This document shows positions 7,062-47,682 of a stretch of DNA of 64,000 nt, piece after piece. A program made the translations under genes and the position numbers. The stretch is taken from NCBI RefSeq assembly GCF_030384885.1, contig NZ_CP128613.1; one strand, written 5' to 3'. The DNA comes from Escherichia coli (GTDB lineage: Bacteria; Pseudomonadota; Gammaproteobacteria; Enterobacterales; Enterobacteriaceae). The number at the start of each line of letters is the position of its first letter. The first letter of the stretch is position 1. The notes under the pieces were generated by a model, which was given only the letters and a program-made list of their open reading frames with translations, was not told the DNA's origin and did not search any database.

Positions 7062-7144
7062 GTAGGCCGGATAAGGCGTTTACGCCGCATCCGACAATCT
7101 TGCACCGGTGCCTGATGCGATGCTGCGCGTCTTATCAGGCCTAC
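7062..7144. repeat. BIME: two inverted REP elements (GCCGGATAAGGCGTTTACGCCGCATCC and GCCTGATGCGATGCTGCGCGTCTTATCAGGC types)
   Basis: Canonical E. coli REP sequences read directly in the lafK/lfiM divergent intergenic region. Confidence 0.7.
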
Positions 7145-22999: not shown

Positions 23000-24889
23000 T
23001 TAAGTGAGTAGGCCACCGGAACCTCCCCGACAGCCTCTCGCAGAACCGTACGTGAAACTCTCGCTTCATACGGCTCCCGTCAGGCAAACGCGCTTCCTGG
23101 TCCTGCTTTCCAGTGGGCAAACAACTCCGGCTTCTCTTTTGACAGCCTTTCCATTAGCTGACACGCCTTCGTCTTTCTATACCGCAGGGTTTTATATTTC
23201 TTTCTCGCCCACGCAATCAGCGTCAGATTAATATATCTGCATACTTTCTTCATCGCTGATTTGTGGTATCTCGCGTAATAATTCAGCCACCCCGATATTA
23301 TCGGATTCAGCCACTTCGCAATATCTTCGAGACTCATCTCCACCCTGCGTCTGATCCACAGTTTCCTGAGTTTTCCAATCATGCCTTTCTGCGCACGGTT
23401 ACTCGCCGCCGGGCTGAAACTCGTAAAGAGGTTTCCCCGCCGGTGGTTACGTGCTCTTCGCGCTCTGAACGTATACCCCAGAAAATCAAACTGCACTGTT
23501 TCATGGTTCGCCTGTCGTTCGCTGTCTTTGCAGTAAACTATTTTCGTTTTCTCCGGATGTAATTCCAGTCCACATTCCTGAAAACGTTTTGCCAGCTTAT
23601 TCAGTAATTCCTCTGCCTGTTGTTTACTGCCACAATGAATTAATCCATCATCTGCATAACGGCACCAGGGAATTTCCGGATAATGTAACGTCAGCCATTT
23701 ATCAAACACATAGTGCAGAAATAAATTCGCCAGTACCGGGCTGATGACTCCACCCTGTGGCGTACCTTTATTTCTTTCCTTCAGTGTTCCATCCGGCATC
23801 TGCACCGGCGCTGTCAGCCACCGGCGAATAGACAGTCTTACCCATTTATCCGCACAATGTTTATCCACTGCCCTGAGTAATAAATCGTGGGGGATATTAT
23901 CGAATAACCCTTTAATATCAAACTCAAGACACCAGTCGTATTGCCAGCAACGTTTTCTGGTGACTGCTATTGCATCCAGCGCTGATTTTCCATGCCGGTA
24001 TCCGTATGAATCATTCAGGAAATAACGCTCCACTAATGGTTCAAACGTTACCAGCACCGTCATCTGCGCTATTCGATCGCTTACTGTCGGTATTCCTAAA
24101 AGTCTTTTGCTGCCATCCTTCTTCGGAATTTCCACCGCACGCACTGGCGGCGGCATCCAGCTTCCCGACGATAACCTGTTCCAGATTTTGTACAGATTTC
24201 CTTTCAGATCCCGCTCAAAATCTTTCAGCGTCTGGTTATCCACTCCGGCAGCTCCGGCATTCGCCTTTATCCGCCGGTACGCTTCCACCACATGCAATTT
24301 ACTGACCTGAAACGGTTTTGTCTGTTCACACACAGCCTCCTCCTGCCTACAGTTGGGCTGTGATGCAGACTGCCCGACGCTGTCCCTTCGCTCCACGTTC
24401 ATTACAAACGCTTCCTCACTACTACGAACAGCTCTGCCCCGGTTTCGCACATCGATACTCTCATACTCATAATTTCGGTTATTTGTATTTCTCTCTTGAC
24501 ATTGCGACGACCGGTTCCCGTAGTTCCTGCAAAGAGCCCGATACAGCGTCATGCCTGCTATACACCGGACATCATTCACGCAGCATTCGGAATTCACCCG
24601 TAAATTAATCCCGGCGGTATCACGAAACCTCCGGTTTTGATGTCACTTAGGACTAACGACGTTTCAACACAGGTTCGGGTTTACTCATCTCACTGTATCT
24701 CACATAGGATCAGATCTCGTCTGATCGTTCCCCCTGCGCTCACTACCATGGCTCTTTACCACAGCAGCCGGGGTTGTTTGGGACCGACTTCCGACAGCAG
24801 ATCCCGGTGGGCCTGCCACCATCTCTTCACAAGCTTATGCTTATTACATGCAAAACGTCCCGTTTTGCATCTTTGTGCCTACGGCACAC
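23000..24889 (-). mobile_element. group II intron (approximate boundaries), carrying an intron-encoded protein
   Basis: Minus strand: candidate 5' end GUGUG at 24889; domain V GAGCCGTATGAAGCGAGAGTTTCACGTACGGTTC at 23078..23041 immediately after the IEP stop; 3' end not precisely mapped. Confidence 0.6.
23080..24402 (-). CDS. group II intron reverse transcriptase/maturase, no endonuclease domain
   Basis: ORF 23080..24597 trimmed to MNVERRD; RT motifs including YADD (CRYADDGLIHC) and a maturase (X) domain; ends without an HNH region. Confidence 0.85.
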   Translation of the reverse strand: MNVERRDSVGQSASQPNCRQEEAVCEQTKPFQVSKLHVVEAYRRIKANAGAAGVDNQTLKDFERDLKGNLYKIWNRLSSGSWMPPPVRAVEIPKKDGSKRLLGIPTVSDRIAQMTVLVTFEPLVERYFLNDSYGYRHGKSALDAIAVTRKRCWQYDWCLEFDIKGLFDNIPHDLLLRAVDKHCADKWVRLSIRRWLTAPVQMPDGTLKERNKGTPQGGVISPVLANLFLHYVFDKWLTLHYPEIPWCRYADDGLIHCGSKQQAEELLNKLAKRFQECGLELHPEKTKIVYCKDSERQANHETVQFDFLGYTFRARRARNHRRGNLFTSFSPAASNRAQKGMIGKLRKLWIRRRVEMSLEDIAKWLNPIISGWLNYYARYHKSAMKKVCRYINLTLIAWARKKYKTLRYRKTKACQLMERLSKEKPELFAHWKAGPGSAFA

Positions 24890-30559: not shown

Positions 30560-30636
30560 TGGCGGAACGGACGGGACTCGAACCCGCGACCCCCTGCGTG
30601 ACAGGCAGGTATTCTAACCGACTGAACTACCGCTCC
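30560..30636 (-). tRNA. aspV: tRNA-Asp (GUC)
   Basis: Exact 77-nt match to the remembered E. coli tRNA-Asp sequence, CCA-encoded. Confidence 0.95.
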
Positions 30637-38783: not shown

Positions 38784-38860
38784 TGGCGGAACGGACGGGA
38801 CTCGAACCCGCGACCCCCTGCGTGACAGGCAGGTATTCTAACCGACTGAACTACCGCTCC
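38784..38860 (-). tRNA. aspU: tRNA-Asp (GUC), distal gene of the rRNA operon
   Basis: 77 nt, identical to the aspV copy at 30560..30636. Confidence 0.95.
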
Positions 38861-38912
38861 ACCGAATTCTTTTACAACCACCGGTTTTATGACCGGCTTA
38901 CTGCTTAATTTG

Positions 38913-39032
38913 ATGCCTGGCAGTTCCCTACTCTCGCATGGGGAGACCCCACACTACCATCGGCGCTACGGCGTTTCACTTCTGAGTTCGGCATGGGGTC
39001 AGGTGGGACCACCGCGCTAAGGCCGCCAGGCA
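38913..39032 (-). rRNA. rrfH: 5S ribosomal RNA
   Basis: 120 nt matching E. coli 5S (TGCCTGGCGGCC...GCCAGGCAT). Confidence 0.95.
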
Positions 39033-39130
39033 AATTCTGTTTATCAACACGTCATGTTCTGACCTGTCGATGTCATCTGTATCAAGCTTACTTGTCGATG
39101 TCTCTTCCGCCAAAACACCTTCGGCGTTGT

Positions 39131-42035
<2,905 letters not shown>

Positions 42036-42218
42036 TCACAACCCGAAGATGTTTCTTGCGATTCATCATCGTGTTGCGAAAATTTGAGAGACTCACGAAC
42101 AACTTTCGTTGTTCAGTGTTTCAATTTTCAGCTTGATCCAGATTTTTAAAGAGCAAAACTTCGCAGTGAACCTTTGCAGGTACACTCTGAAGTATTTTTT
42201 ATTTAATCACTACAGAGA

Positions 42219-42294
42219 TGGTGGAGCTATGCGGGATCGAACCGCAGACCTCCTGCGTGCAAAGCAGGCGCTCTCCCAGCTGAGCTATAGCCCC
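42219..42294 (-). tRNA. alaV: tRNA-Ala (UGC), spacer tRNA
   Basis: 76 nt, GGGGCTATAGCTCAGCTGGGAGAGCGCCTGCTTTGCACGCAGG... Confidence 0.95.
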
Positions 42295-42336
42295 ATAACA
42301 TGTAGTTAAAACCTCTTCAAATTTGCGGTGCAAATT

Positions 42337-42413
<77 letters not shown>

Positions 42414-42481
42414 GTAGAGGTTTTACTGCTCATTTTCATCAGACAATCTGTGTGAGCACTGCAAAGTACAGTTCTTTAAGG

Positions 42482-44023
<1,542 letters not shown>

Positions 44024-44389: not shown

Positions 44390-44962
44390 TTACGCCGGTT
44401 TTTGCTGCTTTTTTATCGCTTGCGGCAGGTCTGCCAGGCTATTTAACACCCAATCCGCCGCGTTTTCTGCTTCAGGCGTAATAGGTTTTCCCGTACGCAC
44501 CAGCACTTTTGTTCCCACGTTCGCCGCAGCCGCTGCCTGCATATCTTCTAATTTATCGCCCACCATATAAGAAGCGGCCATATCAATATGCAAATAATCG
44601 CGTGCTGACAAAAGCATCCCCGGATGTGGTTTGCGGCAGTCGCAGACCTGGCGAAACTCTTCAACACTACCCTGCGGATGATGCGGGCAATAATAGATAC
44701 CATCCAGATCGACATCGCGGTCCGCCAGCGACCAGTCCATCCACTCGGTCAGCGTTTCAAACTGTGCTTCAGTAAATTTACCGCGAGCAATGCCAGACTG
44801 GTTGGTTACTACCACCAGCGCAAAGCCCATTTTTTTTAGCTCGCGCATGGCGTCAATAACACCGTCGATAAATTCAAAGTTGTCGATCTCATGGACATAG
44901 CCGTGATCGACATTAATGGTGCCATCACGGTCAAGAAAAATTGCGGGTACGCTCTTCGCCAC
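44390..44962 (-). CDS. gmhB: D-glycero-D-manno-heptose 1,7-bisphosphate phosphatase
   Basis: 190 aa HAD-family; DRDGT motif. Confidence 0.9.
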
Positions 44963-45043
44963 CTTTTATAGCTCCTTAATAAGGCATGTGACGCTAGTAT
45001 CGCATGTTTCGACCTGCAAGAAAGTGCTCTTCGCATAAACCTG

Positions 45044-45075
45044 ATTGATTTAGACGTCTGGATGCCTTAACATCC
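45044..45075 (+). promoter_or_regulatory. putative MetJ operator (tandem met boxes) upstream of metN
   Basis: AGACGTCT consensus box at 45052..45059 followed by degenerate 8-bp repeats (GGATGCCT, TAACATCC). Confidence 0.45.
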
Positions 45076-45149
45076 ATTTCATTGACGGCTTTGACCGTTT
45101 CAGGCATTCGAAATGCCACGACTAACTTAATGACGATAATAAATAATCA

Positions 45150-46181
45150 ATGATAAAACTTTCGAATATCACCAAAGTGTTCCACCAGGGCACCCGCACC
45201 ATCCAGGCGTTGAACAACGTCAGCCTGCATGTGCCAGCTGGACAAATTTATGGCGTTATCGGTGCCTCAGGTGCGGGTAAAAGTACGCTTATCCGTTGTG
45301 TAAACCTGCTGGAGCGCCCAACCGAGGGTAGCGTGCTGGTCGATGGTCAGGAACTGACCACGCTGTCAGAATCCGAGTTGACCAAAGCTCGCCGCCAGAT
45401 TGGTATGATTTTCCAGCATTTTAACCTGCTCTCTTCGCGCACTGTTTTTGGCAACGTGGCACTGCCGCTGGAGCTGGACAACACGCCGAAAGACGAGATT
45501 AAACGTCGCGTGACAGAATTACTGTCATTGGTTGGTCTTGGCGATAAGCATGATAGTTACCCGTCTAACCTTTCCGGTGGGCAGAAACAACGTGTGGCGA
45601 TTGCCCGTGCGTTAGCCAGCAATCCCAAAGTATTGCTGTGTGATGAGGCCACCAGCGCGCTGGACCCGGCAACAACACGTTCTATTCTCGAACTGCTGAA
45701 AGACATCAATCGTCGTCTGGGTTTGACGATTCTGTTGATCACCCACGAAATGGACGTTGTGAAGCGCATTTGTGATTGCGTGGCGGTGATCAGTAATGGC
45801 GAGTTGATCGAGCAGGACACGGTAAGTGAAGTGTTCTCGCATCCGAAAACGCCGCTAGCGCAGAAGTTTATTCAGTCGACCCTGCATCTGGATATCCCGG
45901 AAGACTATCAGGAACGACTGCAAGCGGAACCATTCGCTGACTGCGTGCCGATGCTGCGTCTGGAGTTTACCGGTCAATCGGTCGATGCCCCGCTGCTTTC
46001 TGAAACCGCGCGTCGTTTCAACGTCAATAACAACATTATTAGCGCGCAGATGGATTACGCCGGTGGCGTTAAGTTCGGCATCATGCTGACTGAAATGCAC
46101 GGCACACAACAAGATACGCAAGCCGCCATTGCCTGGCTGCAGGAACACCATGTAAAAGTAGAGGTACTGGGTTATGTCTGA
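45150..46181 (+). CDS. metN: methionine ABC transporter ATP-binding protein
   Basis: 343 aa; Walker [13 protein letters not shown] signature LSGGQKQR. Confidence 0.95.
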
Positions 46182-46827
46182 GCCGATGATGTGGCTGCTG
46201 GTTCGTGGCGTATGGGAAACGCTGGCAATGACCTTCGTATCCGGTTTTTTTGGTTTTGTGATTGGCCTGCCGGTTGGCGTCCTGCTTTATGTCACGCGTC
46301 CGGGGCAAATTATTGCTAACGCGAAGCTGTATCGTACCGTTTCTGCGATTGTGAACATTTTCCGATCCATCCCGTTCATTATCTTGCTGGTATGGATGAT
46401 TCCGTTTACTCGCGTTATTGTCGGTACATCGATTGGTTTGCAAGCAGCGATTGTTCCGCTGACAGTTGGTGCAGCACCGTTTATTGCCCGTATGGTCGAG
46501 AACGCTCTGCTGGAGATCCCAACCGGGTTAATTGAAGCTTCCCGCGCAATGGGTGCCACGCCAATGCAGATCGTCCGTAAAGTGCTGTTACCGGAGGCGT
46601 TGCCAGGTCTGGTGAATGCGGCAACTATCACCCTGATTACCCTGGTTGGTTATTCCGCAATGGGTGGCGCAGTCGGTGCCGGTGGTTTAGGTCAGATTGG
46701 CTATCAGTATGGCTACATCGGCTACAACGCGACGGTGATGAATACGGTACTGGTATTGCTGGTCATTCTGGTTTATTTAATTCAGTTCGCAGGCGACCGC
46801 ATCGTCCGGGCTGTCACTCGCAAATAA
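46174..46827 (+). CDS. metI: methionine ABC transporter permease
   Basis: 217 aa polytopic permease; 8-nt overlap with metN. Confidence 0.95.
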
Positions 46828-46866: not shown

Positions 46867-47682
46867 ATGGCGTTCAAATTCAAAACCTTTGCGGCAGTGG
46901 GAGCCCTGATTGGATCACTGGCACTGGTAGGCTGCGGTCAGGATGAAAAAGATCCAAACCACATTAAAGTCGGCGTGATTGTTGGTGCCGAACAGCAGGT
47001 TGCAGAAGTCGCGCAGAAAGTCGCGAAAGACAAATATGGCCTGGACGTTGAGCTGGTCACCTTCAACGACTATGTTCTGCCAAACGAAGCATTGAGCAAA
47101 GGCGATATCGACGCCAACGCCTTCCAGCATAAACCGTACCTTGATCAGCAACTGAAAGATCGTGGCTACAAACTGGTCGCAGTAGGCAACACGTTTGTGT
47201 ATCCGATTGCCGGTTACTCCAAGAAAATCAAATCGCTGGATGAACTGCAGGATGGTTCGCAGGTTGCCGTGCCAAACGACCCGACTAACCTTGGTCGTTC
47301 ACTGCTGCTGCTGCAAAAAGTGGGCTTGATCAAACTGAAAGATGGCGTTGGCCTGTTGCCAACAGTTCTTGATGTTGTTGAGAACCCAAAAAACCTGAAA
47401 ATTGTTGAGCTGGAAGCACCGCAGCTGCCGCGCTCTCTGGACGATGCGCAAATCGCTCTGGCGGTTATCAACACCACCTATGCCAGCCAGATTGGCCTGA
47501 CTCCGGCGAAAGACGGTATCTTTGTCGAAGATAAAGAGTCTCCGTACGTAAACCTGATCGTGACGCGTGAAGATAATAAAGACGCAGAGAACGTGAAGAA
47601 ATTCGTCCAGGCTTATCAGTCTGACGAAGTTTACGAAGCAGCGAACAAAGTGTTTAACGGTGGCGCTGTTAAAGGCTGGTAA
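46867..47682 (+). CDS. metQ: methionine-binding lipoprotein
   Basis: 271 aa; lipobox LVGC; NlpA-family. Confidence 0.95.
   Translation: MAFKFKTFAAVGALIGSLALVGCGQDEKDPNHIKVGVIVGAEQQVAEVAQKVAKDKYGLDVELVTFNDYVLPNEALSKGDIDANAFQHKPYLDQQLKDRGYKLVAVGNTFVYPIAGYSKKIKSLDELQDGSQVAVPNDPTNLGRSLLLLQKVGLIKLKDGVGLLPTVLDVVENPKNLKIVELEAPQLPRSLDDAQIALAVINTTYASQIGLTPAKDGIFVEDKESPYVNLIVTREDNKDAENVKKFVQAYQSDEVYEAANKVFNGGAVKGW

What the first reader, a model, noticed from the sequence alone, without database searches (positions are those of the whole stretch)
45044..45075. Candidate MetJ operator upstream of metN
A perfect AGACGTCT met box followed by two degenerate 8-bp repeats lies about 90 bp upstream of the metN start, consistent with MetJ repression of the metNIQ transporter operon.
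Basis: partly seen in the sequence, partly recalled or inferred. Interest (0 to 1): 0.15.

Follow-up and report, generated by a model that had tools for sequence, protein, structure and literature searches.

The report
Known MetJ operator of metNIQ promoter

Summary
The window is E. coli. The gmhB-metN intergenic region matches K-12 except for three bases downstream of the site. Three contiguous 8-bp met boxes lie at 45052-45075: AGACGTCT, GGATGCCT, TAACATCC. This is letter for letter the metN (b0199) MetJ site in Augustus & Spicer 2011 (3 boxes, 20.45 bits, 74 bp from the ATG). With their weight matrix I get 20.43 bits. It is the only site in the 64-kb window that passes their thresholds, and 0 of 200 random 64-kb sequences reach that score. 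The first 8 bp of the reported span (45044-45051) are not a met box; they hold most of the -35 hexamer. A site passing the same thresholds lies upstream of metN in 21 of 21 Enterobacterales and 15 of 17 other loci from MetJ-bearing lineages, against 0 of 42 loci from other taxa. A published start-site map puts the metN TSS at window 45081. The operator therefore spans -29 to -6, filling the spacer and -10 of TTGATT-N17-TAACAT. The inferred mechanism is promoter occlusion by SAM-bound MetJ. Published reporter data (repression ratio 0.05) and delta-metJ RNA-seq show MetJ dependence. Novelty: none.

The parts
45052..45059 (.). Met box 1, AGACGTCT (perfect consensus, 12.58 bits)
   Evidence: Mean identity to the window is 0.97 across 22 Enterobacterales sequences. 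It is part of the published site.
45060..45067 (.). Met box 2, GGATGCCT (5 of 8 matches, 4.22 bits)
   Evidence: It is the most variable box (0.85). Variants in other genera (AGACGCCT, AGACACCT) move towards the consensus and raise the site score.
45068..45075 (.). Met box 3, TAACATCC (4 of 8 matches, 3.63 bits); its first six bases are also the -10 hexamer
   Evidence: It is nearly invariant (0.99) despite its weak MetJ score, which fits a double constraint from operator and -10.
45045..45050 (+). -35 hexamer TTGATT (TTGACT in Yersinia, Pectobacterium, Photorhabdus, Hafnia and others), at -36 to -31
   Evidence: Inferred from conservation, from the 17-bp spacing to TAACAT, and from the position relative to the mapped TSS. 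The simple scan did not flag it because it matches only 8 of 12 positions.
45068..45073 (+). -10 hexamer TAACAT, at -13 to -8
   Evidence: Inferred from its position relative to the mapped TSS and from invariance across Enterobacterales.
45081..45081 (+). metN transcription start site (A)
   Evidence: Kim et al. 2012, PMC3415461, supplementary file 2: NC_000913 position 222714, minus strand, 83 reads, 69-nt 5' UTR. The listed upstream 51-mer is identical to window 45031-45081. K. pneumoniae metN has a start site (71-nt UTR) after the same core sequence. I mapped the coordinate through the K-12 annotation.
45081..45149 (+). 69-nt metN 5' leader, with no Shine-Dalgarno sequence
   Evidence: No Rfam family matches 44900-45300 even at E = 10.
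45150..46181 (+). metN, the ATPase of the methionine ABC importer (ABC_tran + NIL domains)
46174..46827 (+). metI, the permease
46867..47682 (+). metQ, the substrate-binding lipoprotein

Best explanation
Window 45052-45075 is the MetJ operator of the metNIQ (formerly metD: abc-yaeE-yaeC) methionine ABC importer operon of E. coli. It consists of three contiguous 8-bp met boxes, one perfect and two degenerate. Each box would bind one MetJ dimer carrying the corepressor S-adenosylmethionine, and neighbouring dimers bind cooperatively (established MetJ biochemistry; not tested here). The array sits inside the metN promoter. It fills the 17-bp spacer and covers the -10 hexamer of TTGATT-N17-TAACAT, which is -29 to -6 relative to the mapped start site at 45081. 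Bound MetJ would therefore exclude RNA polymerase, so methionine uptake is switched off when SAM is plentiful. Shown: the sequence is identical to the published site; the matrix score and its rarity; the conservation; the position relative to a published start site; and published MetJ-dependent repression of the identical K-12 promoter fragment. Inferred: occlusion as the mechanism, the -35 and -10 assignments, and three dimers as the stoichiometry.
For: The locus is E. coli gmhB / metN-metI-metQ. The intergenic region differs from K-12 at only 3 bases, all downstream of the boxes. The published Table S1 entry reads b0199 metN agacgtctggatgccttaacatcc, 3 boxes, 20.45 bits, gap 74. My re-scoring with the published matrix gives 12.58 + 4.22 + 3.63 = 20.43 bits. 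It is the only passing site in 64 kb, and 0 of 200 null sequences reach it. [quoted passage not shown] In 80 MetN-encoding loci from GTDB species representatives, a passing site lies within 300 bp upstream of metN in 21 of 21 Enterobacterales, 10 of 11 Vibrionaceae, and one locus each of Orbaceae, Psychromonas, Haemophilus, Aeromonas and a gammaproteobacterial MAG. None is found in the 42 loci from Bacteroidota, Halomonadaceae and relatives, Negativicutes, Bacillota and Skermanella. In the Enterobacterales alignment, 45045-45075 is the most conserved block: operator 0.94 and -35 0.93, against 0.56 for both flanks. The TSS at 45081 comes from Kim et al. 2012; I had predicted about 45080 from the alignment beforehand (note). 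metJ is present in 5425 of 5426 complete E. coli genomes.
Against: Nothing found contradicts it. Caveats follow. The weight matrix was seeded with known E. coli sites including this one, so the score is slightly circular; the final matrix rests on 832 half-boxes from many genera. I could not read the primary papers (Merlin 2002, Gal 2002, Marincs 2006). I could not see the gel-shift figure, so direct binding to this fragment is not verified here. No footprint or point-mutant data were seen, so which boxes are actually occupied is not shown. Boxes 2 and 3 are only just above the per-box threshold (4.22 and 3.63 against 3.15). Which lineages carry MetJ was taken from the paper and from taxonomy, not checked genome by genome.
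Confidence: 0.96

Rival explanations
1. The conserved block is only a sigma-70 promoter (-35, spacer, -10). Its resemblance to met boxes is incidental, and MetJ affects metNIQ indirectly.
For: TTGATT and TAACAT are promoter hexamers at the right distance from the mapped TSS. Box 3, the weakest MetJ box, is the most invariant, as expected for a -10 element. Indirect MetJ control does exist elsewhere: metH is repressed through MetR.
Against: Spacers of sigma-70 promoters are normally free to vary, yet box 1 inside the spacer is 0.97 conserved. Box 2 variants move towards AGACGTCT. Vibrionaceae, with a different promoter context, carry 3-4 strong boxes upstream of metN, and taxa outside the MetJ-bearing lineages carry none. 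No MetR-like TGAAN5TTCA site with up to one mismatch lies in the intergenic region. The array score is not reached by chance.
Confidence: 0.02
2. It is a chance occurrence of AGACGTCT with no regulatory role.
For: A single AGACGTCT is expected 0.72 times per 64 kb.
Against: The three-box array is unique in the window and unmatched in 200 null sequences. It is conserved at the same place across Enterobacterales. Published repression data exist for the identical sequence.
Confidence: 0.01
3. The inverted repeat TGGATG-N6-CATCCA (45059-45076) acts as an RNA hairpin or terminator-like element, not as a protein-binding site.
For: The consensus scan lists it as terminator-like: 6 pairs followed by TTTCATTGAC.
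Against: It lies upstream of the metN TSS at 45081, so it is not in the metN mRNA. The gene on its 5' side, gmhB, is transcribed away from it, so there is no transcript to terminate. The dyad follows naturally from two adjacent palindrome-derived met boxes. There is no Rfam match.
Confidence: 0.01

Closest known systems
MetJ operator of E. coli K-12 metN (b0199; metD locus), as listed by Augustus & Spicer 2011 (PMC3228920, Table S1)
   Same: The 24-bp sequence, the number of boxes, the bit score and the 74-bp distance to the start codon are identical. The gene neighbourhood is the same.
   Different: Nothing differs within the operator or promoter. The window carries three substitutions in the 5' leader relative to K-12 (45090 T for G, 45094 A for C, 45112 A for G).
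Other E. coli MetJ operators (metA, metB/metJ, metF, metC, metE/metR, metK, mmuP, ybdH/mtnE)
   Same: They have the same architecture of 2-4 contiguous 8-bp met boxes and comparable totals of 15-31 bits.
   Different: In the metN site nearly all the information sits in one perfect box, with two boxes close to threshold. It lies further from the start codon (74 bp) than metA (19), metC (18) or metF (41).
metN operators of Vibrionaceae
   Same: They also lie upstream of the orthologous metN and contain AGACGTCT-type boxes.
   Different: They have three or four stronger boxes, for example ATACGTTTAGACGTCTAGACGTAAAAATATCT at 35.1 bits, and lie 74-171 bp from the ATG.

Membership tests
MetJ operator (met-box array) | Two or more contiguous 8-bp repeats related to AGACGTCT, with no spacing between them | tested here: met
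   There are three in-register boxes at 45052-45075 with 8, 5 and 4 of 8 matches.
MetJ operator (met-box array) | Weight-matrix score: each box at least a quarter of consensus (3.15 bits) and the site at least consensus (12.58 bits), the criteria of Augustus & Spicer 2011 | tested here: met
   The boxes score 12.58, 4.22 and 3.63, total 20.43 bits. It is the only passing site in the window, and 0 of 200 nulls reach it.
MetJ operator (met-box array) | The site overlaps or adjoins the promoter of a methionine-related gene | tested here: met
   The operator spans -29 to -6 relative to the published metN TSS (window 45081), and metNIQ is downstream.
MetJ operator (met-box array) | The site is conserved upstream of orthologues in MetJ-bearing lineages and absent in lineages without MetJ | tested here: met
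   Found in 21 of 21 Enterobacterales and 15 of 17 other loci from MetJ-bearing lineages, against 0 of 42 other loci. The operator block is 0.94 conserved against 0.56 for the flanks. The distribution of MetJ was taken from PMC3228920 and not re-tested per genome.
MetJ operator (met-box array) | The cognate repressor gene metJ is present in the same genome | tested here: met
   metJ is outside the window, but it is present in 5425 of 5426 complete E. coli genomes, and the window is 100% identical over 2 kb to E. coli 2013C-4282. I did not check that genome individually.
MetJ operator (met-box array) | MetJ- and methionine-dependent repression in vivo | not testable with these tools
   Published for the identical K-12 sequence: lacZ repression ratio 0.05; delta-metJ RNA-seq shows metNQI upregulated.
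MetJ operator (met-box array) | Direct, SAM-dependent binding of MetJ to the DNA in vitro | not testable with these tools
   The paper reports gel shifts for the operators it tested, but the figure is not held as text. I could not confirm the metN lane.

The most novel reading that the evidence does not exclude
The operator itself is known. The most novel reading my evidence leaves open concerns the metN leader downstream of it. The leader is 69 nt long and has no Shine-Dalgarno sequence in any of 12 Enterobacteriaceae examined. It carries two conserved blocks, AAAATGCCACGGCTAAC (45110-45126) and ACGATAATAAATA (45132-45144). These could form an undescribed post-transcriptional control or translation-enhancer element acting on metNIQ in addition to MetJ.
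Probability: 0.1. Interest if true: 0.3.

Novelty: already known. Interest (0 to 1): 0.04.

Why it matters
It matters only as annotation. It correctly places the MetJ operator and the core promoter of the high-affinity methionine importer in this strain. It also shows that the first-stage reader can recognise a real operator from sequence alone. The one modest addition is putting two published data sets together, the met-box list and the start-site map. Together they show that the operator fills the spacer and -10 of the promoter, and this may explain why the weakest MetJ box is the most invariant.

Tried and rejected
- **Primary papers not held.** I tried to read Merlin et al. 2002, Gal et al. 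2002 and Marincs et al. 2006; none is held.
- **Literature search empty.** A full-text search for metNp / metNIQ / transcription start site / MetJ found nothing. The start site came from the supplement of Kim et al. 2012 instead.
- **Scan-tool promoter rejected.** The only + strand promoter the simple scan proposed was ATGCCA-N16-GATAAT at 45113-45140. It would start transcription about 3 nt before the ATG, and no start site is listed there. A constitutive promoter at that spot would also be hard to reconcile with the 20-fold MetJ repression.
- **Terminator-like hairpin rejected.** The hairpin at 45059-45076 lies upstream of the start site.
- **No MetR site.** No MetR-type site (TGAAN5TTCA, up to 1 mismatch) lies in the intergenic region.
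- **No known RNA family.** No riboswitch or other Rfam family matches 44900-45300, even at E = 10.
- **Leader hairpins unsupported.** Two small hairpins are predicted in the leader (alifold -6.3 kcal/mol). The second stem is broken without compensation in several genera, so I do not claim a structure.
- **No fourth box.** 45044-45051 scores -9.93 bits and 45076-45083 scores -19.42 bits.

Full report
**What is there.** The window is E. coli. A 2-kb stretch around the finding is 100% identical to strain 2013C-4282 and is present in 5424 of 5426 complete E. coli genomes. The genes match the K-12 annotation in reverse orientation: gmhB at 44390-44962 (-), then metN 45150-46181, metI 46174-46827, metQ 46867-47682, rcsF, trmO and proS on the + strand. 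The 187-bp gmhB-metN intergenic region (44963-45149) differs from K-12 MG1655 at three positions only: 45090, 45094 and 45112. All three lie downstream of the reported site.

**Checking the observation.**
- AGACGTCT lies at 45052-45059 and is the only copy in the window.
- GGATGCCT follows in register at 45060-45067, and TAACATCC at 45068-45075.
- The reported span starts 8 bp too early. ATTGATTT at 45044-45051 is not a met box (-9.93 bits).
- A single perfect box means little on its own: 0.72 are expected per 64 kb, and 55 of 100 shuffles contain at least one.
- I therefore re-implemented the weight matrix and thresholds of Augustus & Spicer 2011 (PMC3228920, Table 3). The three boxes score 12.58, 4.22 and 3.63 bits, 20.43 in total.
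- This is the only site in the window that passes. None of 200 first-order Markov simulations of the window reaches it; the best scores 19.69.

**It is already published.** Table S1 of that paper lists, for E. coli K-12 b0199 metN, 'agacgtctggatgccttaacatcc', 3 boxes, 20.45 bits, 74 bp from the start of translation. That is the same sequence and the same spacing as window 45052-45075 relative to the ATG at 45150.
- The paper treats the metNIQ boxes as known sites, which it used to seed its matrix.
- It reports that a 400-bp metN upstream fragment driving lacZ has a repression ratio of 0.05 in wild type versus delta-metJ.
- A 2026 RNA-seq study lists metNQI among the genes upregulated in delta-metJ E. 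coli.
- A review summarises Merlin et al. [quoted passage not shown]
- A second comparative study places metNIQ in the core MetJ regulon.
- I could not obtain the 2002 and 2006 primary papers.
- The gel-shift figure is not held as text, so I cannot confirm the metN lane.

**Independent comparative test.** I fetched 80 loci encoding MetN relatives from species-representative genomes. I scanned the 300 bp upstream of each with the same matrix and thresholds.

| Group | Loci with a passing site |
|---|---|
| Enterobacterales | 21 of 21 (61-103 bp from the ATG) |
| Vibrionaceae | 10 of 11 (none in Salinivibrio) |
| Orbaceae, Psychromonas, Haemophilus, Aeromonas, one gammaproteobacterial MAG | 1 locus each, all positive |
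| Rodentibacter | 0 of 1 |
| Bacteroidota, Halomonadaceae and relatives, Negativicutes, Bacillota, Skermanella | 0 of 42 |

The last row covers lineages outside the five orders in which MetJ occurs according to PMC3228920, so it serves as a natural negative control. I did not check metJ genome by genome. Within E. coli, metJ is present in 5425 of 5426 complete genomes.

**Anatomy and mechanism.** In an alignment of the 200 bp upstream of metN from 22 Enterobacterales sequences (21 species representatives plus the window), the outstanding conserved block is TTGAyTT-AGmCGTCT-rGAyrCCy-TAACATCC (window 45045-45075).

| Segment | Mean identity to the window |
|---|---|
| TTGATT (45045-45050) | 0.93 |
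| Box 1 | 0.97 |
| Box 2 | 0.85 |
| Box 3 | 0.99 |
| Intergenic sequence to the left | 0.56 |
| Leader to the right | 0.56 |

- TTGATT, 17 bp, then TAACAT reads as a sigma-70 -35 and -10. From this I predicted a start site near 45080 (note).
- Kim et al. 2012 (PMC3415461, supplementary file 2) map the E. coli metN start site at NC_000913 222714 (-), with 83 reads and a 69-nt 5' UTR. The listed upstream 51-mer is identical to window 45031-45081.
- K. pneumoniae metN has a start site (71-nt UTR) after the same core sequence.
- That start site is window 45081. TAACAT therefore lies at -13 to -8, TTGATT at -36 to -31, and the operator at -29 to -6.
- The operator thus fills the spacer and covers the -10 hexamer. 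The best-supported mechanism is that SAM-bound MetJ dimers, one per box and binding cooperatively, exclude RNA polymerase. The stoichiometry and cooperativity come from established MetJ biochemistry and were not tested here. Occlusion is my inference from position.
- The double duty of box 3 as the -10 element may explain why the box with the weakest MetJ score is the most invariant.
- Box 2 varies, but it varies towards the consensus (AGACGCCT, AGACACCT), which raises the site score in those genera. A spacer that is merely tolerated would not be expected to behave this way.

**Rivals.**
- *Promoter only, with incidental met-box similarity.* This does not explain the conserved spacer, the strong boxes in Vibrionaceae, or the absence of sites outside MetJ-bearing lineages.
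- *Terminator-like hairpin at 45059-45076.* It lies upstream of the start site, and no gene reads into it. It is simply the dyad formed by adjacent boxes.
- *Another regulator or RNA element.* There is no MetR-type site in the intergenic region and no Rfam match even at E = 10.
- *The scan tool's promoter at 45113-45140.* No mapped start site supports it.

**Verdict.** Novelty is nil: this is the known MetJ operator of metNIQ. The only small addition is the explicit placement of the operator inside the core promoter, obtained by combining two published data sets with the alignment.

**Other things seen.**
- A group II intron with its reverse-transcriptase/maturase ORF lies at about 23003-24820 (-).
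- A second conserved intergenic block at 44995-45009 reads on the minus strand as an extended -10 (TGcGATACT) suitable for gmhB.
- The metN leader has no Shine-Dalgarno sequence in 12 of 12 Enterobacteriaceae and carries two conserved blocks.
- The window's three leader substitutions are a rare allele: 17 of 5424 genomes share the 84-bp version. All three states are shared with E. albertii.
- MetN relatives in Bacteroidota are more similar to E. coli MetN (62-72%) than those of Halomonadaceae (55-59%).

Noticed in passing
window 23003-24820 (- strand): A group II intron. Rfam group-II-D1D4-2 matches 24703-24820 and Intron_gpII matches 23003-23078. Between them a 505-aa ORF (23080-24597) carries RVT_1 and GIIM maturase domains. 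It lies beyond the tRNA-Asp gene at 30560-30636. I did not compare this region with K-12.
   Followed up: partly
window 44995-45009: TAGTATCGCATGTTT is the second most conserved block of the gmhB-metN intergenic region (0.86 identity across 22 Enterobacterales sequences). On the minus strand it reads AAACATGCGATACTA, an extended -10-like TGcGATACT about 35 bp upstream of the gmhB start codon, so it is a candidate gmhB promoter. No start-site data for gmhB were found.
   Followed up: partly
window 45081-45149: The 69-nt metN leader has no Shine-Dalgarno sequence in the window or in 11 other Enterobacteriaceae. It carries conserved blocks AAAATGCCACGGCTAAC (45110-45126) and ACGATAATAAATA (45132-45144). 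Two small hairpins are predicted, but covariation does not support them.
   Followed up: partly
window 45090, 45094, 45112: The window has T, A, A where K-12 has G, C, G. Only 17 of 5424 complete E. coli genomes share the window's exact 84-bp version of 45022-45105. E. albertii has the same three states, so this looks like the ancestral allele retained in a divergent lineage. The 2-kb region around it is only 95-99% identical to most E. coli.
   Followed up: partly
window 38784-44023 (- strand): A complete rRNA operon (16S 42482-44023, tRNA-Ile, tRNA-Ala, 23S 39131-42035, 5S 38915-39030, then tRNA-Asp 38784-38860) lies next to gmhB, as rrnH does in K-12. A StyR-44 match lies in the spacer just upstream of 23S at 42043-42151. 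Many of the fetched loci end at a contig edge upstream of gmhB, probably because of this repeat.
   Followed up: no
loci L023, L034, L037, L039-L041, L043, L045, L046 (Bacteroidota): MetN relatives in Pedobacter, Flavobacterium and related Bacteroidota are 62-72% identical to E. coli MetN, more than those of Halomonadaceae (55-59%). This hints at horizontal transfer between Gammaproteobacteria and Bacteroidota. None has met boxes upstream.
   Followed up: no
loci L053 (Salinivibrio sharmensis) and L035 (Rodentibacter rarus): These are the only two loci from MetJ-bearing orders with no threshold-passing met-box site within 300 bp upstream of metN. This may be loss of MetJ control, as reported for Haemophilus ducreyi metNIQ, or a site that is further away or weaker.
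   Followed up: no
window 7065-7141 (+ strand): A match to Rfam naRNA4 (nucleoid-associated noncoding RNA 4, CssrE) at 73.5 bits.
   Followed up: no
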